Source: Limosilactobacillus gorillae (lineage in GTDB: Bacteria > Pseudomonadota > Alphaproteobacteria > CAAGCB01 > CAG-977). From it: a stretch of 64,000 bases of DNA. Below, piece after piece: positions 8,369 through 48,884 of this stretch (positions are counted from its first letter, which is position 1; each line of letters begins with the position of its first letter). The notes beneath the pieces were generated by a model that did no database searches, was not told the origin of the DNA, and worked only from the letters and a program-made list of their open reading frames with translations. The position numbers were made by a program, and so were the translations under genes. The stretch is from NCBI GenBank assembly GCA_963604715.1, contig CAVCSV010000008.1, forward strand, positions 2,529 to 66,528, read 5' to 3'.

Positions 8369-8886
8369 CCGAAGACAACGATTTGTGGCAAGCCGTCGCC
8401 GAAACGGTGCGTCCTTTGGGGTCGAAACAGCCGCAGCCGAAAGCGAAAACGGTTTCCGTTTCCAAAAAATTGACGCTGAAAATCAAACCCTTGCGCCAAG
8501 AACCGCAGGAAGATTTTACCAAATACAAAGAATTGGAAGCGGGCGACATCGAATTTTTGGACAGGAAAAACGGCTTGCGTTTCCGCAACGGCGAAATGCC
8601 GATGCAGGCGACCCTCGATTTGCATGGTCACACGCTGGAAAGCGGGGAAAAAGCTTTTAAAGACTTTATTGTTTCGGCATCGAAACGGCATTTGCGCTGC
8701 TTGCTGATTATCACGGGACGCGGCGGGTTTTTCGGGCGCGGGGTGTTGCGCGCCGATTTGCCGCGGTGGATTAACTCGCCCGAAGTCAGGGGGTTGATTT
8801 TGGCTTTTGCGCCCGCACAGCCCAAAGACGGCGGCGACGGCGCGTTTTATGTGCTGCTGAAACGTCACAGAAAGGACAGAAGATGA
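8365..8886 (+). CDS. Smr-domain protein
   Basis: C-terminal Smr domain (LDLHGHTLESGEKAFKDFI…LLIITGRG). The start is at MTEDNDLW, not at the longer track ORF. Confidence 0.75.
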   Translation: MTEDNDLWQAVAETVRPLGSKQPQPKAKTVSVSKKLTLKIKPLRQEPQEDFTKYKELEAGDIEFLDRKNGLRFRNGEMPMQATLDLHGHTLESGEKAFKDFIVSASKRHLRCLLIITGRGGFFGRGVLRADLPRWINSPEVRGLILAFAPAQPKDGGDGAFYVLLKRHRKDRR

Positions 8887-10190
8887 ATTCAACCATTTTT
8901 GCGCCTGCAACCGCTCAAGGAAAAGCGGGGGTCGCCATTGTCAGAATTTCGGGACCGAATGCCAAGCTTGCCTGCGAAAAGCTGTGCGGGCTGAAAAATC
9001 CGACTCCGCGCAAAGCGGTTTTCACCAAAATCCATACCGCCGACGGCACGCCGATTGACGATGCTTTGATGCTGTTTTTTCCGCATCCGCACAGCTTTAC
9101 GGGCGAAGACGTGGTTGAATTGCAAACCCATGGTGGACGCGCGATTTTGGCGGCTGTTTTGAAAGAATTGGCGGCGTTGGACGATTTCAGACCCGCGGAC
9201 AGGGGCGAATTCACCCGCCGCGCCGTCGAAAACGGCAAAATGGATTTGACCGCGGCGGAAGGTTTGGCGGATTTGGTCGACGCCGAGACCGAACAGCAGC
9301 GGCGGCAGGCTTTGCGCCAGATGAACGGCGCGCTGGCGGGGCTGTACGACGGCTGGCGCGAAGAATTGGTGCATTTGCTGGCATGGATGGAAGCTTACAT
9401 TGATTTTCCGGAGGAAGAAGTCCCCCCGGAAGTCGCCGATTCAATCCGCACCAAAATCGTCGCTTTGCAAACCAAAATCGGCAATCACCTGAAAGACGGC
9501 CGCCGCGGCGAACGGCTGCGCGACGGCTTTCAAATCGCGATTATCGGCGCGCCGAACGCGGGCAAATCCAGTCTGATGAACAAGCTGGCTCAGCGCGACG
9601 TGGCGATTGTGTCGTCGACGGCGGGGACGACGCGCGACATTATCGAAGTGCGCATGGACATTCGCGGCTATCCCGTCGTTATTGCGGACACGGCAGGGTT
9701 GCGAAAGACCGACGAAGAAATCGAAGCAGAGGGGGTTCGCCGCGCCAAAAAACGCGCCGAGGAAGCCGACCTGATTTTGGCGGTTTATGATGCGTCCGAA
9801 AATCAGAACGATTCCGAAACGAAATCGTTTCAAGGTCGAAACGTTTTGACGGTAATGAATAAAAAAGATAAAGTTTCCAATATGTTGTCGGACGGGCTTT
9901 GGGTGTCGGCAAAGACGGGCGACGGCATTGAAACGCTGTTGGAACGCATCGGAACGTTTGTGGAGGATACCTTGTCGATGCGTGAAGAACCGTCCCTGAC
10001 GCGTGTCCGTCACAGACAATCATTAGAAGAATGTTACGCGCTTTTGACACAATCGCTGACCGCTCCCGCCATTGAATTGACGGCGGAGGATTTGCGGCTG
10101 GCGATGCGGGCACTGGGCAAAATCACGGGACAGGTTCGCGTGGACGAACTGCTGGATATTATTTTCAAAGATTTTTGCATAGGAAAGTAA
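8883..10190 (+). CDS. mnmE: tRNA modification GTPase MnmE (TrmE)
   Basis: G-domain motifs ([16 protein letters not shown]) and the C-terminal CIGK. Confidence 0.95.
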
Positions 10191-10194
10191 GAAA

Positions 10195-12054
10195 ATGTTT
10201 GATGTAATCGTTGTGGGCGGCGGTCACGCCGGTTGTGAAGCGGCTGCCGCCGCGGCGCGCATGGGCGCAAATACGCTGCTGTTGACGCACAGAATTGAAA
10301 CAATCGGCGAAATGTCGTGTAATCCCGCCATCGGCGGATTGGGCAAAGGGCATTTGGTTCGCGAAATCGATGCTTTGGACGGCTTAATCGGGCGCGTTGC
10401 GGACAAGGCGGGTATTCAGTTCCGCATGCTCAACAGCTCGAAAGGTCCCGCCGTGCAGGGATTGCGCACACAGGCGGACAGAAAGCTTTACAGACAAGCC
10501 ATGCAGGACGAACTGCTGCACAACACGCCGAATTTGACGGTGGAAGCGGGCGCGGTCGAACATTTGCTTTATAAAGACGAAAACGGGCGGAAAATTGTTT
10601 TCGGAATCGAAACGAAGGACGGCAAACAGTATACGGCGAAAGCCGTTGTTTTGACGGCGGGAACGTTTTTGCACGGGTTGATGCATGTCGGCGACAAAAA
10701 AACTGTCGGCGGACGCGTCGGAGATATTTCATGCGAAAATCTGACGGATTCCCTGATAAAATTGGGATTACGCGTCGGGCGGCTGAAGACGGGAACACCC
10801 GCGCGGCTGGACGGAACGACGATTGATTATTCCAAAACGCAAAAACAGCTGGGCGACGAAAACCCCGAACCGTTTTCGTTTATGGATACGGCAATCGACG
10901 TGCCGCAAATTGCTTGTTACGTTACCGCAACAAACAAGGAAACACACCAAATCATCCGTGACAACATGTATCGCGCTCCGTTGTTTTCGGGGCAGATTAA
11001 AGGTATCGGTCCGCGCTATTGTCCCAGTATCGAAGACAAGCTGGTCAAATTCGCGGACAGGGATTCTCATCACGTCTTTTTGGAACCCGAAGGGCTGGAC
11101 GACGATACGGTTTATCCGAACGGCATTTCGACTTCTTTGCCCGAGGACGTGCAGGATGCGATGATTCACAGTATTGCGGGGCTGGAAAACGTGCGCATTA
11201 TCCGCCCCGGCTATGCGATTGAATACGATTATATCGACCCGCTGGAAATGCGCCGCACGCTGGAAACCAAAAAAGTGTCGGGATTGTTTGTCGCGGGACA
11301 GCTAAACGGCACGACGGGATACGAGGAAGCGGCGGCTTTGGGGCTGGTTGCGGGCGTCAACGCCGCGCTGAAAGCGTCGGGAAGCGGCAAAGAGTTCATT
11401 TTGGACAGGGCGGACGCTTATATCGGTGTGATGATTGACGATTTGACGACCAAAGGTGTTGACGAACCGTACCGTATGTTTACGTCGCGCGCCGAATACC
11501 GTTTGTTGCTGCGTTCGGACAATGCGGATTTGCGTTTGACGCAAAAAGGCATCGACATCGGCTGTGTCGGCGAAAAACGGCAAAAACTGTTTAGTGAAAA
11601 GCTTGCCGCTTTGCAAGAAGCCCGTGAAAAACTGGAAAAAATCGGCGGCACGCCGCGCGAATTGGAATTGTTGGGCTTTGCGGTCAACAAAGACGGCGCG
11701 CACCGCAGCGGCATGGATTTGCTGGCGTACGGGGAAATCGACTGGGACAAGCTTGCCGCCGTGTGGACGGAACTGCAAGGCACACGCCGCGATGTTGTGG
11801 AACAGCTGGAAATCGAAGCCAAATACAAAGGCTATTTGCAGCGGCAGGAAGCCGACATTCGCGCTTTCCGCAAAGACGAAGCGCTGAAAATCCCCATGGA
11901 TTTGGATTACAAAAAAATCGGCGGGCTGTCGAACGAAGTGATTATCAAACTGTCAAAAGTCCGCCCCGAAACCATCGGCGCGGCTTCGCGCGTGTCGGGC
12001 ATTACCCCCGCCGCGATTACGGCGATTTTGGGATATATAAAATCGGCTAAATAA
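10195..12054 (+). CDS. mnmG: tRNA uridine 5-carboxymethylaminomethyl modification enzyme MnmG (GidA)
   Basis: FAD-binding N-terminus ([17 protein letters not shown]) and full-length GidA similarity. Confidence 0.95.
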
Positions 12055-12060
12055 CGAAAA

Positions 12061-13305
12061 TCAGCGATGCGTAAAATGTTTGATATGCGCGTTGATGAAA
12101 TTTTCAAGCCACTTCAAATCGTCTTTGGGCAAACCGCGTCCGATATGCGTGGTTTGTCCGTCCGCGCCGATAACCAAAGAATATTTAAAGTCGTAACTGT
12201 TGTGCACGACATGTAAAGATTCCAGTTTATCCATCGGAATCAAAAAACCGAATGACGGAATTCCCAGCCATTTGGATTTGATGCGGATTCCGTTTTTTGA
12301 AACGACAATTCTTTTTTTGCGGAAAAACAGGGCAAGGGGAATCAAGACAAACAAAACGACCGCCGCAAACAGCAAAGGAATGTACGGCAAGGGCGCATGC
12401 TGTCCGACCGTGCGTACGAAACCGAAAAACGCCGTTGCGAAAAACGCGCACAGACACAGCAAAGCGGATGTTTTCGAAAAAGCGCTGTCGCGGACTAACG
12501 GATCAATTTGGCAGGAATCGGCTTCTTCGACGATATTGAAAGAATGCGGGACCTTGTACAAATCCTTTTCATTGACTTTGATTTTTCCTTCGCGAATCAG
12601 CTGATGTAGCGGTTTTTGAATGTCTTCGGGGGCGATTTCGATAATGCCGTCCGCCGTGTTGAAAATGGCGGGCATTTGCATTTGGCGCGTTAATTCCTCC
12701 CATTTTTTGGAAACGCCGTCGCCGTTGTTCGAAATGTACAGGGGAATGGTTTTTGTTTCGTTGGGATGCTGCAAATCGATGATGTGCTGTGTAAACGACG
12801 TCAATCCCAAAACGTTGACGATGCGGGAACGGTAGCGCACGCCGATATAGCCGTCCAGAGAATCCGCCTGCCTTTGACCTGTTTCAAAAGGCTTTTGAAT
12901 GACAACGGCGGCGAATTTGTGCCCGATGAAAAAATCGCGTCCGTAAAACATCAGCAAAGTGCGCGTCACAATGATGAACAGCCCCAGACCGACAAACAGC
13001 CACGAAGCCGAAAAAGCCGTTTTCAGCGAAATCGACGCGTCCGTGTCGGGAATGTTCAGAAACGAAGACGGCGAATTGAAATTGACCAGCAGTCCCATGC
13101 CGATCATCAGCAGACCGAACGCAATGCCCAGCCAGACGCGTTGGGGCGAAATTCTGTCGCGCGCCTGCGTCGGGCGGTGCGACAAATCGAAATCCAAGTA
13201 TGATGTCAAGGGGCGCAGACGGCGCTTTTCAACCTTTTCGTTGCTTAAAGAAAGTCCTTCGATTTCATCCAGATCTTTGACGGGAGAGTTGTCTTCCTGA
13301 ATCAT
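12061..13305 (-). CDS. Hypothetical membrane protein, about 414 aa, with two pairs of TM helices
   Basis: The start MIQEDN is preceded by aagggg. TM pairs are predicted near residues 50-110 and 300-345. No family was recognised. Confidence 0.5.
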   Translation of the reverse strand: MIQEDNSPVKDLDEIEGLSLSNEKVEKRRLRPLTSYLDFDLSHRPTQARDRISPQRVWLGIAFGLLMIGMGLLVNFNSPSSFLNIPDTDASISLKTAFSASWLFVGLGLFIIVTRTLLMFYGRDFFIGHKFAAVVIQKPFETGQRQADSLDGYIGVRYRSRIVNVLGLTSFTQHIIDLQHPNETKTIPLYISNNGDGVSKKWEELTRQMQMPAIFNTADGIIEIAPEDIQKPLHQLIREGKIKVNEKDLYKVPHSFNIVEEADSCQIDPLVRDSAFSKTSALLCLCAFFATAFFGFVRTVGQHAPLPYIPLLFAAVVLFVLIPLALFFRKKRIVVSKNGIRIKSKWLGIPSFGFLIPMDKLESLHVVHNSYDFKYSLVIGADGQTTHIGRGLPKDDLKWLENFINAHIKHFTHR

Positions 13306-13425
13306 TTCGACCCCTTGAAAGTATGTTTTTTTTCTATTTATGACAAATTCGGCTTTGCTCTGCAAGGGCATTATACTATAACATAGAGGATAAAAGAATA
13401 TTTTTGTGCGGATAAAAGGAAAACG

Positions 13426-15735
13426 ATGGTAGCAACCTCAGGCTTAATCCCGATGCTGTTTGCTTTGGCGGGCGTAATGGTGACGCTGCGCTATTTGAAA
13501 GGCGTGTCCGATTCCGTCGCGGCGATTCGCTATCTGTTTTTCGGGGTTTTGTTTGTTTTCCTGTCCAAACTGCTGATGTTCGGCGTCGGTTTTTTGGGTG
13601 AAACGTACTATTACTTTGCCGCTTTGTCCTGCCGTTTGACGGCCGCCGTTTTGATTGCCGCCGCCGCTTGCGGCATTAAAGGAATGAAGCTTAATTTAAC
13701 GGCGGTTATTTTGATTTTGATGCTTGCCGTCGGGTGGAGCTGGTATGTCGTCGTTTTGACGGGAGACGGTTCGGCGATGCAGCTGTCTTTGGCGGCGTCG
13801 ACGCTGGGGTACGCGGCTTTGGCGGCGGCTTTGTGGCGGCGCAAAGGTCTGCGCAACGCGCTGGGATTTGTGGTAACGGGCTGGGTGTGCATCTTTTTGG
13901 TCGTATACAACATCATCGGGTTGATGTCGTGGGGACAAAGTCTGCTTTCGCCTGTTTTCGAAACGTTTCTGTATATTGCGCTGATGTGCGGGCTGCTGCT
14001 GATTTCCAACAACATCATGGCGCATCAATTTGACGCTTTGGTCAAAGAAATCAAGGAAAACAAGGAACGTCTGCGCTTGATGGTGCAGTTGTCGCCGTTC
14101 CCGATTATCATTTCGCGTTTGAAGGGCGACCAGCTGATTTTGATGAATGAAAGCGCCGCGAAGCTGTTTCGGCTGGACAAGAAAAACATTGCGGGCTTCA
14201 AGATGGTCGATTATTTCGCCGAACCGTCAAAGCGAACCGAACTGCTGGCAAAGCTTGAAAAGCATCCCGTTGTCGACGATTTCGAATTTATGGTCAAGCC
14301 GCGGCAGGGCGAACCGTTCTGGCTGCTGCTGAGCGCGCGCGTGTTCGATTACGAATACGATGTTGCGCTGTATATGGCTTTCCAAGACATTACGGACCGC
14401 AAGAAAAAAGAACTGCAGCTGTTCGATCAGGCGACCCGCGACCCGCTGACAAAATGCTACAACCGCCGCCAGTTCGAAGAATTGGCAAAGAAAGAGGTTC
14501 AGCGTTCCCGCCGCTACAACCATCCGTTCTGTCTGTTTATGATTGACGCGGACCACTTCAAAAACGTCAACGACACGCACGGTCACGCCGTCGGGGATTT
14601 GGTTTTGCAGGCTTTGGCGGACTGTTGCCGCAGAACTTTGCGCGAATCCGACATTGTCGCGCGTTTCGGCGGTGAGGAATTTGTCATTCTGTTGCCCGAA
14701 GCGTCGATTGAAAACGCGCATCGCGTCGCCGAACGGCTTCGCATCAAAATTTCCAAGCTGGTTGTGAAAAACGAACAAAACGAAGACGTTCAATTTACGG
14801 TCAGCATCGGGCTGGTGTCGTCGACGGTGACGGACAACATCGCCGAAATGCTGAAAATGTCCGACGAAGCGCTGTACGAAGCCAAAGAACACGGCAGAAA
14901 CCAAGTCGTTGTGTTCGGTGCGAACGGACCCGACCGCTCCATTCCCGTTCCCGACGGCGAAGACATCGAAAAGGTCAAAAACGAACCGCTGTATTACTTT
15001 ACGCCGGCAAACGCGCCCGTCATCCGCAATCAGGAAGAAGAACCGCAGGAAACGGGCGTTGTCGGGTTGGACGGCACGGCTGTTTCCCAAAAATACGAAG
15101 AATTGGACCATGACGAGGATAAAGTGGGGCATGAGGGTGTTTCGCTGAATTCGCTGTATGAAGACGATTCTTCCGATGAAACGTTTACTCCCGCCGTTTT
15201 GGCGGAACAAACGGACGAAGAACCTGCTTACGACGTCGGAATTCCTGCCGTCGAAGACAATGAAACCGTTGATTTCCCCGCGGTCGAACCGCCCGAAGCG
15301 GATTATGAAATTCCGGTTCCGGAAACGGAAGCCGAAGCGGCCGAACCCGACGAAAACGAATTCGTCCCTCCGCCCGAACCGGAGTTGCCTGCGGAGGAGG
15401 AGCCCGAACCGTCAATGAGCGATGACGACATTGACGCTTTGTTGCGTGACGCTCTGCCTGCGGACGAAGCCGAGCCGCCGCCCGTTTTATCGGCGGCCGA
15501 ACCCGAAGCGCTTGAGGAAACGCCTTTATCGGTTGACGAAGAAGCGGCTGAAATTTCCGTTCCCGCCGTTCCCGTTTCTCAGCCCGTTCCCGTCCGTAAG
15601 GCGGTGATGATAAAGAAAATTCCCGTCAAAATTCCCGCGGGAATGGTAAAAGTTCCGAAAATGCCGGGGGTTGTCCGCGTCAAGATTCCCAAAGCGCTGC
15701 ATCAGGCGCCGATTCCCCCGAAACCGCAGGAATAA
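13426..15735 (+). CDS. Membrane-anchored PAS–GGDEF diguanylate cyclase with a roughly 270 aa acidic, proline-rich C-terminal tail
   Basis: Six N-terminal TM helices, a PAS domain, and an active GGEEF motif with an upstream RESD I-site (RESDIVARFGGEEF). The tail is E/D/P/A-rich and ends in a basic KIPxK repeat. Confidence 0.85.
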   Translation: MVATSGLIPMLFALAGVMVTLRYLKGVSDSVAAIRYLFFGVLFVFLSKLLMFGVGFLGETYYYFAALSCRLTAAVLIAAAACGIKGMKLNLTAVILILMLAVGWSWYVVVLTGDGSAMQLSLAASTLGYAALAAALWRRKGLRNALGFVVTGWVCIFLVVYNIIGLMSWGQSLLSPVFETFLYIALMCGLLLISNNIMAHQFDALVKEIKENKERLRLMVQLSPFPIIISRLKGDQLILMNESAAKLFRLDKKNIAGFKMVDYFAEPSKRTELLAKLEKHPVVDDFEFMVKPRQGEPFWLLLSARVFDYEYDVALYMAFQDITDRKKKELQLFDQATRDPLTKCYNRRQFEELAKKEVQRSRRYNHPFCLFMIDADHFKNVNDTHGHAVGDLVLQALADCCRRTLRESDIVARFGGEEFVILLPEASIENAHRVAERLRIKISKLVVKNEQNEDVQFTVSIGLVSSTVTDNIAEMLKMSDEALYEAKEHGRNQVVVFGANGPDRSIPVPDGEDIEKVKNEPLYYFTPANAPVIRNQEEEPQETGVVGLDGTAVSQKYEELDHDEDKVGHEGVSLNSLYEDDSSDETFTPAVLAEQTDEEPAYDVGIPAVEDNETVDFPAVEPPEADYEIPVPETEAEAAEPDENEFVPPPEPELPAEEEPEPSMSDDDIDALLRDALPADEAEPPPVLSAAEPEALEETPLSVDEEAAEISVPAVPVSQPVPVRKAVMIKKIPVKIPAGMVKVPKMPGVVRVKIPKALHQAPIPPKPQE

Positions 15736-15757
15736 AGCAAAAGCGGACGCTCTTTGT

Positions 15758-15786
15758 TTGACCGACGGGTTTTTAAGCGTTATACT
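15758..15786 (+). promoter_or_regulatory. Putative sigma70 promoter for the GGDEF-EAL gene
   Basis: TTGACC-N17-TATACT lies about 30 nt upstream of the ATG at 15817, and an SD (aaggggga) is present. Confidence 0.35.
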
Positions 15787-15816
15787 GATTGCGTTCAGTT
15801 TTATCAAGGGGGACGC

Positions 15817-17859
15817 ATGTCCGGTTCAACGTCTGTTTTTTCATACAAAGACGCGCTTTTGCAGTCTAAGGTCATTCCTTTTACGCGGACAAAATCCGCA
15901 GACGGTGTTTTTTCCTATTTTTTGCCCAAATCCGACGGACGGGATGCGTTGGGATTGTGCGAAAACCCGCATGCAGACGCCGACGGCTGTCCGGACGCCA
16001 TTCATTGGAGCGACAAGGAAGCGCTTGTGGAAGCTTTGCATGAATCCGAAACGGGTGAAACCCCTTGTGCCGAAGATTTCCGCATTATTCTGCCGACGGG
16101 GGAAACAAAATGGCTTTACGGGGTTTCCACGCCGAAAAAACGCAAAAACGGCAGTGTTGTTTGGATGAATGTTTCCGCCGAACGTCAAAACGGACATTTC
16201 AGCGAACAGGTTTTGACCGCTTTGCCCGAAGCCGCCGTTATTTTCGACCGTCAAGGCGTCATTTTGAAATCGTCCGACAAATTCCGTTCTTTGGTCCACA
16301 AAGAAGAAACGGATTTGTGCAAAACGTCCGTTTTTGCCGCTTTGTCCGAAAACGTCGCCGAAACATTACGACAGTATTTGCTGCTTTCAACCCTCAAAGA
16401 CAAGACGGTCTTTTACGAAACATTGACTGTTTCGGGGTATCCGCCCGTTGCCGTTGAAATCGAAATCGCGCAAAAAGACAGCTTTTTCATTTGTGTTTTC
16501 CGCGACATCGCCGCTTTTGAACGGCGCGAGGAGCGGCTGAAATATCTGGCGTATCACGATACGGAATCGGGCGTTGAAAACTATGCGTATCTGAAAGAGG
16601 TTTTCCCCAAGGTCGTCGATCAAGCCAAAGTAACGCAAACGCAGATTGCTGTGTTGTCGATTTCTCCCGACAGTCTGGGACAGATAAACGCGGTTTCCGC
16701 CCATTTGGTCAATACCCGTCTGGTGGCGGCTGCCGCGGACAGAATACGGCAATGTTTGAACGATTCCGATGTTTTGGCGCTGACCCGTTCCCACCACTTT
16801 ACGGTTTTGCTGACGGGAATAGAATTTTCGATAGAAATCGAAAAGAAAGTCGAAGCGATTTTAAACGCTTTCAAAGAACCCGTTTTGATTGACGACGTCG
16901 AATTCGATTTTTCCGTCAGTATCGGCGTCTGCTTTTATCCGCAAAACGGCGACAGACTGGAACAGCTGATTGAATTCGCCGATTTGGCGCTGGACAAAGC
17001 GCGGTCGGAATCTCAGTCGTCCATGCGGCTGTACAGCAGCGATTTTTCAATGGCGGCGGCGGTCAACCGCAATATGCGCAGGAATTTGAAAGCGGCAATC
17101 GAAAACGGGGAAATCACCGCCTATTACCAGCCGCAAGTCGCCATTCAAACGGGACAAATCATCGGGTTGGAAGCGCTGGCGCGGTGGAAAACGCCCGACG
17201 GACTGATTCCGCCCGCGGATTTTATCGCCGAAGCCGAAGAATACGGTTTGATAGACGCGCTGACGGAAACGGTTTTGGATCAGGCGTGCAGCTGGAATCA
17301 GAAATGGTATTCCATGGGGCTGTGCAGCGTGCCCGTCGCCGTCAACATTTCGGCGCGTCAATTCCATAACGAAACACAGCTGCTGAAGCTGGTGGACAAC
17401 GCTTTGGACAAGAACGGCTTGCCGCCGTATCTGCTGGAACTGGAACTGACCGAAAGTTCGGCGATGTATGACCCGAAAAACGCGCGCCGCATTATTCAAA
17501 ACCTGTTGGACAACAACATCCGTTGCGCTTTGGACGATTTCGGAACGGGGTATTCCTCCTTAAGCGTTCTGCGCAGTTTTCCGCTGAAAAAACTGAAAAT
17601 CGACCGTTCGTTCATTCTGGATTTGAAAGAAAAGAAAAATCTGGAAATCGTGCGCGCGACGATTGCCATGGCGCATGCGCTGAATCTGACCGTTTTGGCG
17701 GAAGGCGTCGAAACCCGTCAGCACTTTGAAATCCTGAAATCGCTGGACTGTGACGTTATTCAGGGCTACCTGTTCGCCCAGCCTTTGTCGGCGGAGGAAA
17801 CGGAACTGCTGCTGATGCGCTGGGACGCGGGCTTGGCGGCGACGGGCAGGGGGCTGTAA
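15817..17859 (+). CDS. PAS – degenerate GGDEF – EAL protein; likely a c-di-GMP phosphodiesterase
   Basis: The EAL motifs are intact (EALAR, ELTES, DDFGTGYSSL, KIDRSF, EGVET, QGY). The GGDEF-like domain has SHHFT in place of GG[DE]EF. Confidence 0.85.
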   Translation: MSGSTSVFSYKDALLQSKVIPFTRTKSADGVFSYFLPKSDGRDALGLCENPHADADGCPDAIHWSDKEALVEALHESETGETPCAEDFRIILPTGETKWLYGVSTPKKRKNGSVVWMNVSAERQNGHFSEQVLTALPEAAVIFDRQGVILKSSDKFRSLVHKEETDLCKTSVFAALSENVAETLRQYLLLSTLKDKTVFYETLTVSGYPPVAVEIEIAQKDSFFICVFRDIAAFERREERLKYLAYHDTESGVENYAYLKEVFPKVVDQAKVTQTQIAVLSISPDSLGQINAVSAHLVNTRLVAAAADRIRQCLNDSDVLALTRSHHFTVLLTGIEFSIEIEKKVEAILNAFKEPVLIDDVEFDFSVSIGVCFYPQNGDRLEQLIEFADLALDKARSESQSSMRLYSSDFSMAAAVNRNMRRNLKAAIENGEITAYYQPQVAIQTGQIIGLEALARWKTPDGLIPPADFIAEAEEYGLIDALTETVLDQACSWNQKWYSMGLCSVPVAVNISARQFHNETQLLKLVDNALDKNGLPPYLLELELTESSAMYDPKNARRIIQNLLDNNIRCALDDFGTGYSSLSVLRSFPLKKLKIDRSFILDLKEKKNLEIVRATIAMAHALNLTVLAEGVETRQHFEILKSLDCDVIQGYLFAQPLSAEETELLLMRWDAGLAATGRGL

Positions 17860-17862: not shown

Positions 17863-19671
17863 TTGTTCAAGTATGCATTTTTGCTGTTGCTGGCGGCGTG
17901 TTCCGCGCCGATTTATTCGGAAACAGCGCCGTCATGGGTCAATTCTTTGCGCGGCGGCAACAGCACGTTGAAAATGACCAGCGGCGACAAGGTGCTGTTC
18001 CGTTCCAATTTCAAAAGCGCGAAAATCACGGACAGGGAAGACGCTTGCGATGCCGCTTTGAAAAAGAACGAAGAGTTCATTCGCAAAACCTACCCCCGTT
18101 CGGCTGTGATACCGATGACGGTGGAATTGCGCTATTTCGATACGGTTGTCAAAGACTGCTCGACAACCGTCAGCGTGCCGCGTTCGTTTAAAGACGGTGA
18201 CGAAACCGCCAAAAAAACGGTCGGCGCGCAAGGCGGCAATACGGGGATTTTGAATTTGACGACGGCGCCGACGGATTCCGCCAATGTTTTGATTGACGAA
18301 ATGCCGTTTTCCCAAGCCAATTCGAATATCAAAATCGCGTTGAACGCGGGAACGCACACTTTGCGCATTGACCACCCGAATTATGAAGCGTTCGAACAAA
18401 AAATCAAAATCACGCCGCAAAGCGAATTGCCCGTTTCCGTCAAGCTGATTCCTTCCAAAATCAAAATCGCCGTCAACGTTTTAAACGACATTCAGCCCGA
18501 TGTCTGGCTGAACGATGTGAAGCAAGGCAAAACGCCCGTTTCGCTGACGGCGGAAATCAATCAGGACAACACGATTACCTTGCGGCATCCCGAATTTTTG
18601 GAATATACGATTGCGCTGAAAGCCGCCGATATGCGCCGCGGCGACGATGTGAACCTGACCAACGTCGTAATGACCGAAAAGCCCGCGTATGTCGCTTTTA
18701 CAACAGATCCTTCGGGCGCCGAAATTTTTGTCGACGGCAAAAACATCGGAAAAACACCGATTAAAAAGTATGTTGTTTCACGTGGAACACACCGATTTGA
18801 AACATATAAAAACGGCTGGCTGGCAAGCGGCGGAGAAATCGTTGCCGCAGGCGGAAAAACAACGGCGAAGCACATTCGGCTGACCAAAGACGCGGATTCC
18901 CGCTTCGTCGTTTTGGAAACCAAAAGCGAAACGAAACCCGCCGTTGTTGTGCAAAAACAAACCGCCGACATTGTGGCGCGCGACAAATATCATACGTATT
19001 CTTTTGAAGCGTTGCCCGCGACTTTGCCCGTCATTCCGCAGGCGGCGACGCGTGAGGACATTTTGGCGGCTTTGGCGAAATGGGATTATCCCGAAAACTT
19101 TTTGAAAGGCAGCGTGTCCTACAATCCGAACGGCACGTTTTTCGTTCGTTTGTTTTTCGACGCGAATGCGTACAAAACGTTGTTTTACGATAAAATCCAC
19201 GCCGTTTTGAAACGGATTCCGAAAGATTCCGCCGTCTGCAAAATCGAACACAAGCGCGAATGGACGGGAAAATACGATGCGAACAAATACAAGGTTTACA
19301 CGGAAACCGTTACCGACAACTGCAATCACGGAATAGCGGTCGCCAAAACGCCCGACGGCAAAAAGCTGAAAAAGTACGGCATTTCGTATTTGAAGACTTT
19401 GAAAATCAAATCAAAAGCCGTCAGCCGCACGGCGGTTTTAAAGGTCGTCTATGCGGACGGCGGCGTCAAAACGGTTAAATTCCCGATTGTTTTGGGAAAA
19501 GTCAAAACGGACGGCGGATTGACCTTTTCTCCGTCAATCAAAGTCGGCGTTTGCCCGAATTGCAAGGTTGAAACATTGGTACAGAAAAACAATTCCATGG
19601 TTGTCGGAACCGTTCTTGATGCCCGAAACGTTCGGTCCGTGACGCTTTCAATCGAAAGGGATATGCGATGA
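17863..19671 (+). CDS. Lipoprotein with three PEGA domains (602 aa)
   Basis: The signal peptide carries the lipobox LLAAC. PEGA-like motifs include LIDEMPF…GTHTLRIDHPNYE, VWLNDVKQGKTPV and EIFVDGKNIGKTPIKKY…GTHRFETYKNGW. Confidence 0.7.
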   Translation: MFKYAFLLLLAACSAPIYSETAPSWVNSLRGGNSTLKMTSGDKVLFRSNFKSAKITDREDACDAALKKNEEFIRKTYPRSAVIPMTVELRYFDTVVKDCSTTVSVPRSFKDGDETAKKTVGAQGGNTGILNLTTAPTDSANVLIDEMPFSQANSNIKIALNAGTHTLRIDHPNYEAFEQKIKITPQSELPVSVKLIPSKIKIAVNVLNDIQPDVWLNDVKQGKTPVSLTAEINQDNTITLRHPEFLEYTIALKAADMRRGDDVNLTNVVMTEKPAYVAFTTDPSGAEIFVDGKNIGKTPIKKYVVSRGTHRFETYKNGWLASGGEIVAAGGKTTAKHIRLTKDADSRFVVLETKSETKPAVVVQKQTADIVARDKYHTYSFEALPATLPVIPQAATREDILAALAKWDYPENFLKGSVSYNPNGTFFVRLFFDANAYKTLFYDKIHAVLKRIPKDSAVCKIEHKREWTGKYDANKYKVYTETVTDNCNHGIAVAKTPDGKKLKKYGISYLKTLKIKSKAVSRTAVLKVVYADGGVKTVKFPIVLGKVKTDGGLTFSPSIKVGVCPNCKVETLVQKNNSMVVGTVLDARNVRSVTLSIERDMR

Positions 19672-20327
19672 AAAAGCTTTTTGCGGTCTTGTCTTTGTTT
19701 TTGCTGAATGCCTGCGCCGCGCCCGAACATCATACGTTATTCATCGATTCTAACGTTTCCGCCGATGTGTATACGGGCGATGTCAAAATCGGGACGACGC
19801 CGTTTTGGGGTGAAATGTCGGGCAACGACGTTATGCATCTGACACTGCGCAAGCAAGGCTACAAAACAGCGGAAATCAAAGCGGGATACGGTGTGAAAGA
19901 CGGCTATTCCCGCGGCGGCGTTTTTGCGTCGACCAATACGCTTTCATCCGACTGCGATACCAAAACGATGGCTTACGGCGACAAAGAACCGCAAGGCGTT
20001 TGTCAAGTCACGACGTTTTATGCCGTCGCTTCCATGATTTACGGGCTGGGGCTGTCGATTTCGGCGACGGATACTTTTTACCCCAATCCCGTTTTGTTTG
20101 AATTCGACGACAACGAATTTTATGTTGAAATGGTTCCCGAAAACAAAGAAAAATTCACGCAAAACGATTTGGAAAACCTGCGGTTCAAGGCTTTTGTTTT
20201 AAAAAATTTCCCGTCGCTGCAGGCGCAAAAGCCCGAATATGTCGCGGCGTTGAAAAAGCTTGCCCCGACGGCGGCATCGCCCGCCGATTACCGCGCCGCG
20301 ACGGATTATCTGCGGGCGGCTGAATGA
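19668..20327 (+). CDS. Lipoprotein with an N-terminal PEGA-like domain (219 aa)
   Basis: Lipobox LLNAC and the motif DVYTGDVKIGTTPF. It overlaps the upstream gene by ATGA. Confidence 0.65.
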   Translation: MKKLFAVLSLFLLNACAAPEHHTLFIDSNVSADVYTGDVKIGTTPFWGEMSGNDVMHLTLRKQGYKTAEIKAGYGVKDGYSRGGVFASTNTLSSDCDTKTMAYGDKEPQGVCQVTTFYAVASMIYGLGLSISATDTFYPNPVLFEFDDNEFYVEMVPENKEKFTQNDLENLRFKAFVLKNFPSLQAQKPEYVAALKKLAPTAASPADYRAATDYLRAAE

Positions 20328-21223
20328 CAAAGCCGCTGCTTTTGCTGCTGTTTTTGGCGGGGTGTCAGCTTCCTGCGGAAAACGGCACGCCGCTGAAAGT
20401 GGACGCGTATTCGGCGGAAATCCCCGCGGACAAAGCGGCGGTCGTGCGTCTGCAAAACAAAATCATTCGTCAAAGCAGTTTGGAATACAGGGACTTTTAC
20501 CCCAAATTGAAAGCGGTTTTGACCGAAAAAGGCTATCGGATTGTTTCGGAAAACCAACCGCATGCCGTTGTGTTGAAACTTTATTTCGGTGTACGGCGCA
20601 CGAATTACTGGAACGGGCGGTACAGCATCGGAAAAACGTCAAAACCGTCGGCTTATTCGGACGATGTTTTTGCGCAAGCGTTGTCCGTTTACAAAAAAAC
20701 GAATTTGTATTCCAAATTTTTGCGCGTTGTTGCCGTCGATGCCGAAAACCCGAAGCGCGAGCTGTGGAAAGTCAAAGCCGTCAAAGAAGACGAAGCCGAG
20801 GATTTCCGTTCCGCGCAATATGAATTGCTGTATCTGTTCAACCGCTATGCGGAACGGGATTCTTTGCTTCAAATTCGGGGAAATTTGTCGGGCAATGAGG
20901 TTTATCAGCGTTTTATTCGGAAAGTGTCGCCCGCGCAAACGGATATGACCGCTTATTTGCCGATGGAGCTGAAAAACGATTATCAAAAATGGCTGCAAAG
21001 AAAAGTCAACGCCTGCGCAAAGGTTTTTGTTCCGTGCGGTTTGAAAGCGGGAACATGGGCGAGGTTCGAACTGACCGCGTTCGGAACGGTGGAATTTTTT
21101 GAAACAAACGCCGATTCCGAACGGGCGAAGTCCTGCTTGGCGGAAATGTTGGAAAGTTTGGTTTTGGCACCCGTCGGCATTCCCAAGAACGAAACCTATA
21201 CCGTTGTCATTCCGCCGCCATAA
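20324..21223 (+). CDS. Lipoprotein of unknown function (299 aa)
   Basis: Lipobox FLAGC and an ATGA overlap with the upstream gene. No family was recognised. Confidence 0.6.
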   Translation: MTKPLLLLLFLAGCQLPAENGTPLKVDAYSAEIPADKAAVVRLQNKIIRQSSLEYRDFYPKLKAVLTEKGYRIVSENQPHAVVLKLYFGVRRTNYWNGRYSIGKTSKPSAYSDDVFAQALSVYKKTNLYSKFLRVVAVDAENPKRELWKVKAVKEDEAEDFRSAQYELLYLFNRYAERDSLLQIRGNLSGNEVYQRFIRKVSPAQTDMTAYLPMELKNDYQKWLQRKVNACAKVFVPCGLKAGTWARFELTAFGTVEFFETNADSERAKSCLAEMLESLVLAPVGIPKNETYTVVIPPP

Positions 21224-21587
21224 ACGCGTTTTGAATATGCTTCGGAAAACCGTTCGGAGTCATTAAAATCACATCAAAACGAATGTCGAAATCCGCAAAT
21301 TCGGGATGAAGCATCAAATAATACTCCGCCCCCCTGACGCGGCGTTCCCGCACCAAAGGCGACACGGATTCCGCCGCCGCCGTTTCGGTTTGGCGCAGTT
21401 TGACTTCGGCAAAGACCAAAACTTTGCCCTTTCGGACAATCAAATCGATTTCGCCCGCACCCGTTCCGCGCGGCGGTTTGAAGTTTTGTTCAACGACCCG
21501 ATAGCCTTTCAGCCGCAAAAACAAAGCCGCCTTGGTTTCCGCAAGATGCCCCCGTTTGTTGGCTGTTCTGCCCTTTTCGCTGTTCAT
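21207..21587 (-). CDS. yraN: YraN-family endonuclease (UPF0102)
   Basis: The 126 aa product matches YraN (GEIDLIVRKGKVLVFAEVKLR). Confidence 0.8.
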   Translation of the reverse strand: MNSEKGRTANKRGHLAETKAALFLRLKGYRVVEQNFKPPRGTGAGEIDLIVRKGKVLVFAEVKLRQTETAAAESVSPLVRERRVRGAEYYLMLHPEFADFDIRFDVILMTPNGFPKHIQNAFMAAE

Positions 21588-22420
21588 TTCAGTTCCAAAG
21601 CCCGCTTGTACAGTTCTTTTTTGGAAACGCCCGTCTGTTCGGCGACAACGGCGGCGGCGTCCTTGATTCGCATGGTTTCCAGCGCTTTTTTCAGCAAAGC
21701 GTCAATGTCCGCGGCTTCGGCTGGCTTTTCCAAAGGCGGCGCGACGACAATCACGATTTCTCCCTTGGGCTGACCGTTTTGTTCGTAATGCGCCAACAGC
21801 TCCGAAAACGTTCCGCGCACGGTTTGTTCGAATTTTTTGGTCAGCTCGCGCGCGACGGCAGCGGGGCGGTCGCCCAGCACTTTTTTCATCGCTTCCAGCG
21901 TTTCCGTCAAACGGTTCGGGGATTCGTAAAAAATCAAAGTCGCGGGAATGTTTGCCAGCTCGTTCAACTCTTTTTCCTTTGCGGCGGCTTTGGGGGGCAG
22001 AAAGCCCTCGAACAGCCAGCGGTGCGACGGCAGTCCCGACAGCTGCAAAGCCGTCAAAACCGCGCTTGCCCCCGGAATGGCGGTAAAGTAAATATCGTTC
22101 GCGATGCAGTCCTGCACCAGCCGATACCCCGGATCGCTGACAATCGGCGTTCCCGCGTCGGACACTTGCGCAATCATTTCCCCGTTTTTCAGCCGTTCAA
22201 TCAGTTGAGGGCGCACTTTTTCCGCGTTGTGTTCGTGATAGGGCGTCAGTTTCGCCGATATGCCCAGATAAGACAGCAGTTTTGCCGTGACGCGTGTATC
22301 TTCGCACGCGACAAGGTCTGCTTTTTTCAAAACTTCGACGGCGCGGGCGGAAATATCGCCCAAATTGCCGATGGGGGTTGCAACCAGATACAATCCTTTG
22401 ATAAAAGTTTGTTCAGACAT
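21584..22420 (-). CDS. rsmI: 16S rRNA (cytidine1402-2'-O)-methyltransferase RsmI
   Basis: GLYLVATPIGNLGDIS…ACEDTR, a tetrapyrrole-methylase-fold family. Confidence 0.85.
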   Translation of the reverse strand: MSEQTFIKGLYLVATPIGNLGDISARAVEVLKKADLVACEDTRVTAKLLSYLGISAKLTPYHEHNAEKVRPQLIERLKNGEMIAQVSDAGTPIVSDPGYRLVQDCIANDIYFTAIPGASAVLTALQLSGLPSHRWLFEGFLPPKAAAKEKELNELANIPATLIFYESPNRLTETLEAMKKVLGDRPAAVARELTKKFEQTVRGTFSELLAHYEQNGQPKGEIVIVVAPPLEKPAEAADIDALLKKALETMRIKDAAAVVAEQTGVSKKELYKRALELK

Positions 22421-37617: not shown

Positions 37618-38765
37618 AATTGTCCTCTTTTCGCTTCAATCGGACGGAAATGACGCTGAAAGACCGCTTTTTGCGGCTCAGCTGGTTTTATGTTTTTCTG
37701 ATTTGCATGGTTGCCGCAACGGGATTGGTGGTTTTGTACGCCGCCGCGAACGGCAGTTGGAATCCGTGGGCGTCCAAACAGTTTGTCCGCTTTTGTTTGG
37801 GATTCTGCGTGATGATTGTCGTCGGAATGACGAATTTGCGCTTTTGGCTGAAATACGCCTATGCTTTTTACACCGTCGCCGTGATTATGCTGTTCATCGT
37901 CGAATTTTTCGGGCACGATGCAATGGGGGCGCAGCGGTGGCTGAATCTGGGATTTATCAAAGTTCAGCCGTCCGAATTGATGAAAATCGCGCTGATTTTG
38001 GCACTGTCGCGGTATTTTCACGGCGGGTCTTTGCAGGATGCGCAAAGCATGTCGTATATTGTCGCGCCGACTTTGATGGTGCTGCTGCCCGTTGCGCTGG
38101 TGTTGAAACAGCCCGATTTGGGAACGGCGGTTTTAATGGCGTCGGGGGCGGTCGTTTTGTTTTTTCTGGTCGGCGTCCAGATATGGAAATTCGGCGTTGT
38201 GGGCTTTTTGGGGCTGTTGTCGTTGCCGATTGGCTGGCGGTTCCTGCACGATTATCAAAAGGAGCGCGTTTACACGTTCCTTGACCCCGAACGCGACCCG
38301 CTGGGCAAAGGATACCATATTCTGCAATCCAAAATCACGCTCGGTTCGGGCGGTATTTTCGGCAAGGGATTTTTGCAGGGAACGCAAAGCCGCTTAAACT
38401 TTCTGCCCGAAAAGCAGACGGACTTCATCTTTACCGTTTTGGCGGAAGAGTTCGGTTTGGTCGGTTCCGTTTCGCTGCTGATGCTGTACTTGGCTTTGAT
38501 TTTTTACGGATGCCTGATTGCGTTCCGTTCCACCAGCTTTTTCGGGCGGATATTGGCGTTGGGGTTGTCGGCAAACCTGTTTTTGTACGTTTTCATCAAT
38601 ATCGCGATGGTAATGGGACTGCTGCCCGTCGTGGGCGTGCCTTTGCCGATGATTTCATATGGTGGCACGGTGATGCTGACGCTGATGTTTTCGTTCGGAT
38701 TGATTGAGTGCGTCAACGTCAACCGCGACGTCCAAATCGGACGCCGCGGCGCATACGACGATTAG
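37614..38765 (+). CDS. mrdB: Peptidoglycan glycosyltransferase RodA (SEDS family)
   Basis: A 10-TM SEDS protein in the mreBCD-mrdA-rodA order, with an ATGA overlap. Confidence 0.9.
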   Translation: MKLSSFRFNRTEMTLKDRFLRLSWFYVFLICMVAATGLVVLYAAANGSWNPWASKQFVRFCLGFCVMIVVGMTNLRFWLKYAYAFYTVAVIMLFIVEFFGHDAMGAQRWLNLGFIKVQPSELMKIALILALSRYFHGGSLQDAQSMSYIVAPTLMVLLPVALVLKQPDLGTAVLMASGAVVLFFLVGVQIWKFGVVGFLGLLSLPIGWRFLHDYQKERVYTFLDPERDPLGKGYHILQSKITLGSGGIFGKGFLQGTQSRLNFLPEKQTDFIFTVLAEEFGLVGSVSLLMLYLALIFYGCLIAFRSTSFFGRILALGLSANLFLYVFINIAMVMGLLPVVGVPLPMISYGGTVMLTLMFSFGLIECVNVNRDVQIGRRGAYDD

Positions 38766-39469
38766 TCTTTGGCGGCTTTCGCGGCGGCTTTGGCTTCCTC
38801 GCGCGCCTTTTGTTCGGCGGCTTTCTTGGCGGCGGCTTCGCGTTCGGCTTGGTCGCGGATAAGCGCGTCAATCAAGGGGTTTCCCGCGCTTTGCGGCGCT
38901 TTTTCTTCGACTTCGTTTTTGAATTCCGACACATCGACGCCGAAATCGCGGTATTCCTGTTCAACGTCCTTTTCGTATTGTTCGATTTCTTTCTGCCGGT
39001 GGGCGTCGTACATTTCAATCAGCTGCAGCGTGCTTTGAATCAAAGGATTCGCCATTGAAATTTCGTCCAGATTCATTTTGGTTTCAATGGAGTTGCGGAA
39101 CGGAATGGCTTTTTCGTTGCCCAGCAGAACGGCGGTTTGGAACCATTTGTACGCAAAGATGTTGCTGAACGGCACGCCTTTGCCCGATTCGTACAGTTGC
39201 CCCAATTCGATTTGCGCGTCCGTATGGTTGCGCATGGCGGCGGACGTAAAGCAGTCGGCGGCGGCGATGTAGGATTCTTCTGCGTTGTCTTCCAGCAGCA
39301 TTTTTCCGCGTTCGTACAAAGCGGCGGGGTCGGTCATTTTTGCGCAAACGGCGGCGGCATTGATGTATTTCGACAGCATGGCTTCCGACGAATCCTGCAG
39401 GTTTGTCTGAGCGACGGCGGCGGCGCTTTGAACAAAAAACGGCAACGAGAAAAGAAATACCTTGAACAC
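38762..39469 (-). CDS. Secreted Sel1-repeat protein (235 aa)
   Basis: A signal peptide followed by Sel1-like repeats (AQIELGQLYESGKGVP…). The C-terminus is a lysine/alanine/glutamate-rich tail. Confidence 0.7.
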   Translation of the reverse strand: MFKVFLFSLPFFVQSAAAVAQTNLQDSSEAMLSKYINAAAVCAKMTDPAALYERGKMLLEDNAEESYIAAADCFTSAAMRNHTDAQIELGQLYESGKGVPFSNIFAYKWFQTAVLLGNEKAIPFRNSIETKMNLDEISMANPLIQSTLQLIEMYDAHRQKEIEQYEKDVEQEYRDFGVDVSEFKNEVEEKAPQSAGNPLIDALIRDQAEREAAAKKAAEQKAREEAKAAAKAAKD

Positions 39470-39548
39470 GAACCCATATCCTTAAATAATGTAAAACAAT
39501 CGGCGACAGACGCCGCCTTTTGTGGATTCTAAGCTAAAAGAGCGAAAA

Positions 39549-43618: not shown

Positions 43619-43699
43619 ATTAAGCCCTTTCGTCAAAAAAGCCATTGTTTTTTTGCCAAGCGGTGTATAATACCCGCTTTAAAACAAAAGGGGATAAGG

Positions 43700-48856: not shown

Positions 48857-48884
48857 GGAATCCCCGCGGGAAAATCTTTAAAGG

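What the first reader, a model, noticed from the sequence alone, without database searches (positions are those of the whole stretch)
17863..21223. Three translationally coupled lipoproteins (two with PEGA domains) directly downstream of the c-di-GMP enzymes
Three consecutive genes each encode a signal peptide with a lipobox cysteine and overlap by ATGA (19668 and 20324). The first begins 4 nt after the PDE stop. The first lipoprotein carries three PEGA domains and the second has an N-terminal PEGA-like domain. PEGA domains occur in S-layer and envelope-complex proteins. I recognise no characterised system with this architecture. The tight coupling to a diguanylate cyclase and a phosphodiesterase suggests a c-di-GMP-controlled periplasmic or outer-membrane lipoprotein complex, such as a surface-layer, adhesion or secretion accessory.
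Basis: partly seen in the sequence, partly recalled or inferred. Interest (0 to 1): 0.6.

Follow-up and report, generated by a model that had tools for sequence, protein, structure and literature searches.

The report
Orphan gut-alphaproteobacterial lipoprotein operon
Three real, co-translated envelope lipoprotein genes sit behind c-di-GMP enzymes, but only the first two form a conserved pair, and in other uncultured gut Alphaproteobacteria that pair occurs without any c-di-GMP genes, so the c-di-GMP link is local to one genus and the function remains unknown.

Summary
Genes at 17863-19671, 19668-20327 and 20324-21223 each encode a lipobox signal peptide. They overlap by ATGA, start 3 nt after an EAL phosphodiesterase gene, and are under purifying selection (dN/dS 0.10-0.29).

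LipoA (unique N-domain, three PEGA-type beta-sandwiches, unique C-domain) and LipoB (PEGA domain, conserved hydrophobic segment, helical tail) form a tightly coupled pair. The pair is found in about seven uncultured gut/rumen alphaproteobacterial species among 185,579 species genomes. More distant versions occur on gut metagenome contigs.

GGDEF/EAL genes are adjacent only in the window's own genus (LipoA 81-93% identical). One species there has only the phosphodiesterase next to the operon. Every more distant lineage has different neighbours and no c-di-GMP genes within 8-10 kb.

LipoC is genus-specific and fast-evolving. Its N-terminal half is a remote DUF4136 relative.

No characterised family, solved structure, defence model, phage or riboswitch matches. 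My best reading is a membrane-anchored periplasmic LipoA-LipoB scaffold that one genus placed in an operon with a phosphodiesterase. This is an undescribed but narrow lipoprotein cassette with no demonstrated mechanism, so interest is modest.

The parts
13426..15735 (+). Membrane-bound PAS-GGDEF diguanylate cyclase. It has a multi-TM N-terminus, a GGEEF active site with an RESD I-site, and a ~270-aa acidic/Pro-rich tail. It is adjacent to the operon in two of the three species of the genus.
   Evidence: Pfam GGDEF 156 bits and PAS_9; NCBIfam GGDEF domain; sequence motifs. 86% identical in L014/L026 and absent next to the operon in L025.
15754..17859 (+). Cytoplasmic PAS-GGDEF(degenerate)-EAL phosphodiesterase. 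The likely true start is the ATG at 15817. It is the first gene of the conserved EAL-A-B-C unit in this genus.
   Evidence: Pfam EAL 232 bits and GGDEF 77 bits. EAL, DDFGTG, ELTES and EGVE motifs are present, while GGDEF is replaced by RSHHF. 79-84% identical and directly upstream of LipoA in L005/L009/L025 and L006/L014/L026.
17863..19671 (+). LipoA, a 602-aa lipoprotein. Residues 1-13 hold the lipobox (Cys13). Residues 18-122 form a clade-specific N-domain with conserved C62/C99. Residues ~123-346 form three PEGA-type beta-sandwiches (window 18229-18900). A short linker follows. Residues 370-602 form a family-specific C-domain (window 18970-19668) with conserved DKYH..F, ATRE, WDYP and SYN motifs and C459/C487.
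   Evidence: Homology to the distant cassette proteins covers residues 117-502 (L018_675: 36% identity, E 3e-70).
19668..20327 (+). LipoB, a 219-aa lipoprotein (Cys16). Residues 18-75 form a PEGA domain (window 19719-19892). Residues ~108-135 form a conserved hydrophobic YG.G segment (window 19989-20072). A YYVEMxPE strand motif packs back on the PEGA sandwich. Residues 160-219 form a helical tail. Its ATG overlaps the LipoA stop codon (ATGA).
20324..21223 (+). LipoC, a 299-aa lipoprotein (Cys14). Residues ~20-190 form a remote DUF4136-like domain (window 20381-20893). Residues 195-299 form a family-specific C-domain with invariant C238/C271. It is found only in this genus, evolves fast, and overlaps LipoB by ATGA.
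21207..21587 (-). Convergent yraN (UPF0102) gene. Its 3' end overlaps the LipoC 3' end by 17 nt, which marks the end of the operon.
   Evidence: ORF list; UPF0102 annotation of the syntenic genes in L006 and L001; tblastn 86% to L014.

Best explanation
Shown: LipoA and LipoB are a conserved, translationally coupled pair of extracytoplasmic lipoproteins. The pair is restricted to uncultured gut and rumen Alphaproteobacteria.

Inferred: the two proteins most likely form a membrane-anchored periplasmic hetero-complex. LipoA would supply an elongated stalk of three PEGA beta-sandwiches between two family-specific globular domains. LipoB would supply one more PEGA module, which may pair with LipoA's PEGA modules, plus a hydrophobic segment that dips into or crosses a membrane. 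I take the role to be structural, scaffolding or binding in the envelope rather than enzymatic.

Shown: in the window's genus a third, fast-evolving lipoprotein was added downstream. This is LipoC, which has a DUF4136-like domain and a unique C-domain. The unit was also placed directly behind a GGDEF*-EAL phosphodiesterase gene and, in two of three species, a membrane PAS-GGDEF cyclase.

Inferred: the lipoproteins are therefore co-transcribed with c-di-GMP turnover enzymes. Since the pair functions elsewhere without such genes, c-di-GMP is not intrinsic to the module. The link is a lineage-specific operon recruitment. It could mean simple co-expression, or the lipoproteins could act as an envelope-side partner of the signalling enzymes.
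For: - Lipoboxes are conserved in every homologue. Invariant Cys pairs in A, B and C are consistent with an oxidising compartment (same calls).
- A-to-B coupling is conserved across all lineages. The genes overlap, or are separated by at most 9 nt, in L001, L002, L003, L007, L018, L020, L021 and L023.
- The family is extremely narrow. There are about 16 full-length LipoA clusters among 5.8 billion proteins and 7 of 185,579 species genomes, all gut/rumen alphaproteobacterial MAGs.
- PEGA modules are present in both proteins and are related to each other.
- A hydrophobic segment is conserved in the LipoB family. KD19 is 1.2-1.8 in the full-length forms (1.2-1.5 in the window's own clade) and 2.2-2.7 in the short forms.
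- Purifying selection acts on all three genes.
- LipoC is present only in the genus. Its remote relatives are DUF4136 lipoproteins.
- EAL-A-B-C stayed intact through a genus-level rearrangement, seen by comparing L025 with the window and L026.
- There are no c-di-GMP genes within 8-10 kb in the other lineages.
Against: - No direct evidence exists for an A-B complex. AF-multimer was not available.
- The AF2 model of LipoA is poor (mean pLDDT 54.9), and the N-domain and much of the C-domain are unresolved.
- Localisation in the outer or inner membrane, or on the surface, is not determinable from sequence.
- The 'structural or binding role' is argued from the absence of catalytic signatures, not from any positive match.
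- The conserved fusion to the EAL gene within the genus could mean a closer functional tie to c-di-GMP than I allow.
Confidence: 0.5

Rival explanations
1. The three lipoproteins form an output complex, such as a surface layer, adhesin or secretion accessory. Its assembly or activity is controlled by c-di-GMP made and degraded by the two upstream enzymes.
For: A 3-nt gap separates the EAL gene from LipoA, and the EAL-A-B-C order is conserved in all three species of the genus, even after a rearrangement. The cyclase has an intact GGEEF motif and the EAL domain has intact motifs.
Against: The A+B core occurs in at least four other lineages with no GGDEF, EAL or PilZ gene within 8-10 kb. A, B and C have no c-di-GMP-binding domain and are exported, while c-di-GMP is cytoplasmic. 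No LapD-like transmembrane receptor and no c-di-GMP riboswitch is present. One congener lacks the adjacent cyclase.
Confidence: 0.15
2. The lipoproteins act as envelope-side sensory input to the c-di-GMP enzymes. This would be analogous to the YfiB lipoprotein in YfiBNR, or to the DUF4136 lipoprotein that ends the Burkholderia RR-LysM/FecR-HK 'BiofilmReg' operon. Under this reading they report envelope state to the membrane cyclase in this genus.
For: Operon organisation with a multi-TM cyclase. There is a precedent for a DUF4136 lipoprotein as the last gene of a signalling operon (PMC5192318). LipoC is DUF4136-like and exists only where the c-di-GMP genes are adjacent. LipoB has a membrane-active segment that could contact the cyclase's TM domain.
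Against: The cyclase appears to have only short extracytoplasmic loops and no periplasmic domain. The conserved upstream partner is the soluble EAL protein, not the cyclase. There is no OmpA/Pal-like or YfiR-like domain. A+B exist without signalling genes elsewhere.
Confidence: 0.15
3. The lipoproteins are a surface-exposed, host- or phage-facing module, acting as an adhesin or in receptor masking. They would be under diversifying pressure in gut symbionts.
For: The family is restricted to gut/rumen organisms. The cluster evolves faster than its flanking housekeeping genes: C is 53-66% and A 81-88% identical, against 90-97% for the neighbours. Distant cassettes sit beside ankyrin-repeat proteins and restriction or defence-type genes.
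Against: dN/dS is well below 1 for all three genes. There are no PADLOC hits and no copies on viral contigs. In the window's clade and in L021 the genes lie in housekeeping neighbourhoods near the replication-origin gene set. Surface exposure of lipoproteins cannot be predicted here.
Confidence: 0.15

Closest known systems
PEGA-domain proteins (Pfam PF08308; S-layer-like/transthyretin-like beta-sandwich modules)
   Same: LipoA has PEGA modules well above the Pfam cut-off. LipoB's N-domain is homologous to them. The fold hits are carboxypeptidase-D transthyretin-like and SusC NTE-type sandwiches.
   Different: PEGA is only a generic module. The N- and C-domains of LipoA and the rest of LipoB match nothing known. 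No PEGA lipoprotein system has been characterised.
DUF4136 lipoproteins (PF13590), e.g. the fourth gene of the Burkholderia 'BiofilmReg' two-component operon (PMC5192318)
   Same: The LipoC N-terminal half retrieves DUF4136 lipoproteins in a profile search. Like the Burkholderia protein, it is the terminal lipoprotein gene of a signalling operon linked to biofilm-type regulation.
   Different: LipoC itself does not reach any Pfam threshold. It carries an extra family-specific, Cys-containing C-domain. DUF4136 has no known function, so the comparison gives no mechanism.
YfiBNR (TpbB) system of Pseudomonas/E. coli: outer-membrane lipoprotein, periplasmic repressor and membrane diguanylate cyclase in one operon (from my knowledge of the literature)
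   Same: Lipoprotein genes are co-operonic with a membrane-bound GGDEF cyclase. It offers a plausible logic of envelope-to-c-di-GMP signalling.
   Different: There is no OmpA/Pal-like domain and no YfiR-like protein. The cyclase lacks a periplasmic domain. The invariably adjacent enzyme is a soluble EAL protein. The lipoprotein pair is conserved elsewhere without any cyclase.
LapD-LapG-LapA inside-out c-di-GMP control of a surface adhesin (from my knowledge of the literature)
   Same: It shares the idea of cytoplasmic c-di-GMP governing a periplasmic or outer-membrane protein.
   Different: There is no LapD-type HAMP-GGDEF-EAL receptor with a periplasmic domain, no LapG protease and no RTX adhesin in the locus.
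LPP20-family lipoproteins (H. pylori Lpp20 operon; FlgP-type)
   Same: LipoA has an 'APSWV' motif just after the lipobox, and the small upstream lipoproteins of distant cassettes have PSW or PDWV motifs. These resemble the 'APDWV' of Lpp20, as I recall it.
   Different: Homology is not supported. There was no Pfam LPP20 hit and no PDB sequence hit. hhalign probability against the remembered Lpp20 sequence was about 1%.

Membership tests
Bacterial lipoproteins (SPase II substrates) | N-terminal signal peptide ending in a lipobox [LVI][ASTVI][GAS]C with an invariant Cys | tested here: met
   LLAAC, LNAC and LAGC in the three proteins. The Cys is invariant in alignments A1, A2 and A3.
PEGA domain (PF08308), LipoA | Score above the Pfam gathering cut-off (20.8 bits) | tested here: met
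   73.7 bits in two stretches. A third, upstream beta-sandwich is only PEGA-like.
PEGA domain (PF08308), LipoB | Score above the Pfam gathering cut-off, or demonstrable homology to PEGA modules | tested here: inconclusive
   LipoB's own score is 11.9 bits, E 0.22. However, hhalign gives 89-91% probability to LipoA PEGA2/3, the AF2 sandwich is confident, and the homologues L020_260 and L020_274 score 24.2 and 24.8 bits.
DUF4136 (PF13590), LipoC | Score above the Pfam gathering cut-off (32.8 bits) | tested here: not met
   There was no Pfam hit for LipoC. Only a remote link exists. The LipoC profile finds proteins at E 7e-9 to 1e-3, of which 8 of 10 tested carry DUF4136 matches. Four of those (P0078, P0080, P0085, P0086) are above the 32.8-bit cut-off, as is P0091 at 36.7 bits.
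c-di-GMP effector/output systems | A c-di-GMP receptor element in or next to the output proteins, such as PilZ, a degenerate GGDEF/EAL receptor with a transmembrane link, MshEN or a riboswitch | tested here: not met
   LipoA, LipoB and LipoC have no such domain. Rfam found no c-di-GMP riboswitch in the window or in four related loci. The degenerate GGDEF lies in the soluble EAL enzyme itself.
c-di-GMP effector/output systems | Phylogenetic co-occurrence of the lipoprotein module with GGDEF/EAL genes | tested here: not met
   Adjacency is seen only in the window's genus. It is absent within 8-10 kb in all other lineages. Genome-wide co-occurrence was not testable.
YfiBNR-type lipoprotein-DGC signalling | OmpA/Pal-like lipoprotein (YfiB), periplasmic YfiR, and a DGC with a periplasmic sensor domain | tested here: not met
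   None of these domains appears in Pfam or NCBIfam scans. The cyclase N-terminus is polytopic without a sizeable periplasmic domain.
LPP20 family (PF02169) | Pfam match or profile similarity to Lpp20 | tested here: not met
Anti-phage defence systems (PADLOC) | Match to a PADLOC model | tested here: not met
   There were no hits for A, B, C or the distant cassette proteins, and no copies on viral contigs.

The most novel reading that the evidence does not exclude
LipoA-LipoB, with a variable third lipoprotein, is an undescribed envelope machine specific to gut-associated Alphaproteobacteria. In the window's genus it would be wired directly to c-di-GMP signalling. It could act as a trans-envelope sensor feeding the membrane cyclase and phosphodiesterase. 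Alternatively, its assembly could depend on the co-translated phosphodiesterase through LipoB's membrane segment and helical tail.
Probability: 0.12. Interest if true: 0.6.

Novelty: new variant of a known kind. Interest (0 to 1): 0.33.

Why it matters
If the LipoA-LipoB pair is a discrete envelope complex, it would be a lineage-specific surface or periplasmic structure of a poorly known, uncultured group of gut and rumen Alphaproteobacteria. It would also assign a first context to two domains of unknown function, namely the LipoA C-domain and the LipoB body. The genus-specific fusion to an EAL phosphodiesterase gives a natural experiment on how envelope modules get recruited into c-di-GMP operons. 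As it stands, this is a well-delimited orphan gene family, not a demonstrated new mechanism.

Tried and rejected
1. LipoA N-domain as LPP20/FlgP-like: only the PxWV motif is shared. There was no Pfam hit, no PDB hit, and about 1% hhalign probability.
2. LipoC C-domain as TonB_C-like: hhalign probability 1.3% against a remembered E. coli TonB C-terminus.
3. Defence or phage origin, suggested by WYL, PDDEXK, RT and R-M neighbours in distant cassettes: no PADLOC hits and no relatives on IMG/VR contigs.
4. c-di-GMP riboswitch control in this or other lineages: none found at Rfam gathering thresholds.
5. Solved-structure relatives by sequence: none for the A, B or C profiles at E<=10, apart from a chance GerM hit at E 0.32.
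7. The 251/252-aa convergent gene downstream of LipoB in L003 and L007 as a LipoC analogue: no similarity. It is a Gly/Ala-rich hydrophobic protein.
8. ORF 21306-21773 (155 aa) as a fourth operon gene: rejected, because it lies antisense to yraN/rsmI and has no family match.
9. Promoter and terminator scans gave nothing above the shuffled expectation.
Full report
**Observation**

The + strand carries three ORFs: 17863-19671 (602 aa, TTG start), 19668-20327 (219 aa) and 20324-21223 (299 aa).
- Each begins with a short basic/hydrophobic leader ending in a lipobox: LLAAC, LNAC and LAGC.
- The lipobox Cys is invariant in every homologue collected.
- The two ATGA start/stop overlaps are present.
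- LipoA's TTG follows the TAA of the upstream gene after 3 nt.
- Upstream lie a polytopic PAS-GGDEF protein with GGEEF and an RESD I-site (13426-15735), and a PAS-GGDEF*-EAL protein with a degenerate GGDEF (RSHHF) but intact EAL, DDFGTG and EGVE motifs (15754-17859).
- The operon ends against a convergent yraN gene (21207-21587, minus strand), which overlaps LipoC by 17 nt. rsmI and an lpoA-like gene follow.
- All three lipoprotein genes are under purifying selection against two congeneric genomes. dN/dS is 0.10-0.20 for A, 0.12-0.18 for B and 0.22-0.29 for C, against 0.04-0.06 for mnmG and trmE.

**Anatomy of LipoA**

Pfam gives PEGA at 73.7 bits in two stretches. The AF2 model is poor overall (mean pLDDT 54.9). 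It is usable for residues ~125-270 and parts of 400-600. The domains are:
- The model shows three consecutive beta-sandwich modules. hhalign relates modules 2 and 3 at 74% probability. Module 1 is only weakly related.
- An N-domain (residues 18-122) is very highly conserved, with invariant C62/C99.
- A C-domain (residues 370-602) carries the motifs DKYH..F, ATRE, WDYP and SYN, with invariant C459/C487.
- The N- and C-domains match no Pfam, NCBIfam or PDB sequence.

**Anatomy of LipoB**

The AF2 model has mean pLDDT 66.7. It is confident in the N-terminal sandwich and the C-terminal helices. The domains are:
- The N-domain is homologous to LipoA's PEGA2 and PEGA3 at 89-91% hhalign probability.
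- A poorly modelled middle region contains a conserved hydrophobic YG.G segment. KD19 is 1.2-1.5 in the window's clade. It is 2.2-2.7 in the short distant forms, where it looks like a true membrane helix.
- A conserved YYVEMxPE strand packs back onto the sandwich.
- The protein ends in a helical tail.

**Anatomy of LipoC**

LipoC has no direct family match. A profile search of 1.84 billion representatives retrieved, beyond its own small family, proteins matching its first ~190 residues. Of ten of these tested, eight are DUF4136 lipoproteins by Pfam, and some carry PDZ domains. The C-terminal ~100 residues, with invariant C238/C271, are unique.

**Distribution**

LipoA has only about 16 full-length clusters among 5.8 billion proteins. 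It occurs in 7 of 185,579 species-representative genomes. All seven are uncultured Alphaproteobacteria or Rhodospirillales MAGs from human gut, rumen, roe deer rumen and horse faeces. LipoC has seven clusters. One is labelled 'Acetobacter sp.' MAG. No relative lies on viral contigs. A metagenome scan added only the same lineages.

**Comparative context (the decisive evidence)**

| Lineage | LipoA identity | Loci | Arrangement |
|---|---|---|---|
| Window's genus | 81-93% (housekeeping 90-97%) | L005/L009/L025 (UBA2903-like), L006/L014/L026 (HGM16787-like) | EAL-A-B-C always contiguous |
| Second lineage | ~58% | L003, L007, L010, L011, L028, L030 | A-B, overlapping, after a SulP-STAS transporter and before an unrelated convergent gene |
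| Third lineage | ~52% | L001, L002, L012, L013 | A-B among GerE, acyltransferase_3 and rho |
| Distant cassettes | 36% over residues 117-502, E 3e-70 | L018/L019/L023/L024, L020, L021 | A different small lipoprotein precedes an A homologue with a different N-domain, followed by one or two LipoB-type genes |

- Within the window's genus, the HGM16787-like species also keeps the PAS-GGDEF gene and the divergent 436-aa membrane protein.
- The UBA2903-like species instead has restriction-modification genes upstream of EAL and an inverted mnmG downstream, with no adjacent cyclase.
- The distant cassettes lie next to ankyrin-repeat proteins, WYL/PDDEXK, R-M genes, or recA/ileS.
- None of the non-genus loci has a GGDEF or EAL gene within 8-10 kb, whether judged by precomputed Pfam or by tblastn.
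- LipoC occurs only in the window's genus.
- The conserved unit is therefore A (PEGA stalk plus C-domain) followed immediately by B.
- The third lipoprotein and the neighbourhood are variable.

**Interpretation**

The tight, universally conserved A-to-B coupling and the shared PEGA modules support a stoichiometric extracytoplasmic A-B complex anchored by lipid and by LipoB's hydrophobic segment. So do the conserved Cys pairs and the lipoboxes. The absence of catalytic signatures argues for a structural or binding role. This step is inferred, not shown.

The c-di-GMP link is real but genus-restricted. The EAL gene, rather than the cyclase, is the constant partner, and the unit survived a rearrangement. 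This suggests co-transcription has some value in that genus. The lipoproteins have no c-di-GMP receptor domain and are exported. No riboswitch is present. A direct 'c-di-GMP-controlled complex' is therefore not supported.

A sensor-type relationship remains possible, as with YfiB in YfiBNR. Another parallel is the DUF4136 lipoprotein that ends a Burkholderia biofilm-regulating two-component operon (PMC5192318). This reading is untested. It is weakened because the cyclase lacks a periplasmic domain.

A host- or phage-facing surface role is suggested by gut restriction and the faster evolution of the cluster. LipoC is 53-66% identical where neighbours are 90-97%. Against it stand dN/dS values below 0.3, the lack of PADLOC hits and the lack of viral copies.

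**Comparison with known systems**

The only secure family assignments are 'lipoprotein' for all three proteins and 'PEGA' for LipoA. LipoB is PEGA by homology. LipoC is at best a remote DUF4136 relative and fails the Pfam threshold. The features that define YfiBNR, LapDG and LPP20 were tested and not met. The TonB_C guess for the LipoC C-domain was also rejected. No paper describes a PEGA lipoprotein system.

**Verdict**

This is a genuine, well-delimited but narrow orphan lipoprotein cassette. It is built partly from known module types, and I class it as a new variant of a known kind. The headline idea of c-di-GMP control rests on a genus-specific gene order and is not supported by comparative genomics. 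Interest is modest (0.33). It would rise only if an A-B(-C) complex with a defined envelope function, or a physical link to the c-di-GMP enzymes, were shown.

Noticed in passing
window 14930-15735 (C-terminal ~270 aa of the PAS-GGDEF protein): After the GGDEF domain, the cyclase carries a long acidic, proline-rich, low-complexity tail. The tail ends in a basic repeat-like stretch (IKKIPVKIPAGMVKVPKMPGVVRVKIPK). It has no family match, which is unusual for a diguanylate cyclase.
   Followed up: no
window 12061-13371 (-): A 436-aa membrane protein with two hydrophobic hairpins and no family match (only a weak EXS hit) is divergently transcribed from the cyclase. It is 91% identical in the HGM16787-like species. 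It was not seen in the UBA2903-like locus, where the cyclase is also missing, so it may belong with the cyclase.
   Followed up: partly
window 17863-21223 versus 8883-12054: Synonymous divergence of the EAL-A-B-C cluster against congeners (dS 0.59-1.29) is about two- to three-fold higher than that of the adjacent trmE and mnmG (dS 0.31-0.48). This hints at different codon constraints or at recombination or exchange of the cluster within the genus.
   Followed up: no
L015 2475-3290 (+), horse-faeces alphaproteobacterial MAG: The LipoA N-domain (50% identical over residues 6-111) is reused in a 271-aa lipoprotein. There it is followed by a coiled coil and a Cys-rich C-terminus, with no PEGA stalk. 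An ankyrin-repeat membrane protein lies upstream, a Gly/Ala-rich hydrophobic protein lies downstream, and a 1127-aa flagellin-like gene is nearby.
   Followed up: partly
L018/L019/L023/L024 and L020: Distant versions of the cassette (small lipoprotein, PEGA lipoprotein, LipoB-type) are repeatedly flanked by large ankyrin-repeat proteins and by defence-type genes. These include WYL/WCX, PDDEXK_4, RVT_1 with PRTase-CE, Dcm-HATPase-Vsr, and a type III R-M system. The ankyrin association recurs in three independent contexts.
   Followed up: partly
window 48879-48974 (-): A bacterial small SRP RNA is present (Rfam RF00169, 61 bits). The 403-aa ORF 48849-50060 (-), which has no Pfam match, overlaps it and is therefore probably not a real gene, at least at its 3' end.
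   Followed up: no
window 38762-39469 (-), 41550-43043 (-), 42983-45037 (+): Two Sel1-repeat proteins flank a DsbD-like gene (39522-41561). A 684-aa ORF with no Pfam match follows them. The rest of the window is housekeeping: mreB, miaA, purB, murD-like, dnaX, fabG/fabF, mltG and an OprB-like porin.
   Followed up: no
L025 66-3355 (-): In the UBA2903-like species, an HNH endonuclease and two C5-cytosine methylase genes lie directly upstream of the EAL-A-B-C operon, where the window has the cyclase. The operon's upstream boundary is therefore a site of gene turnover.
   Followed up: partly
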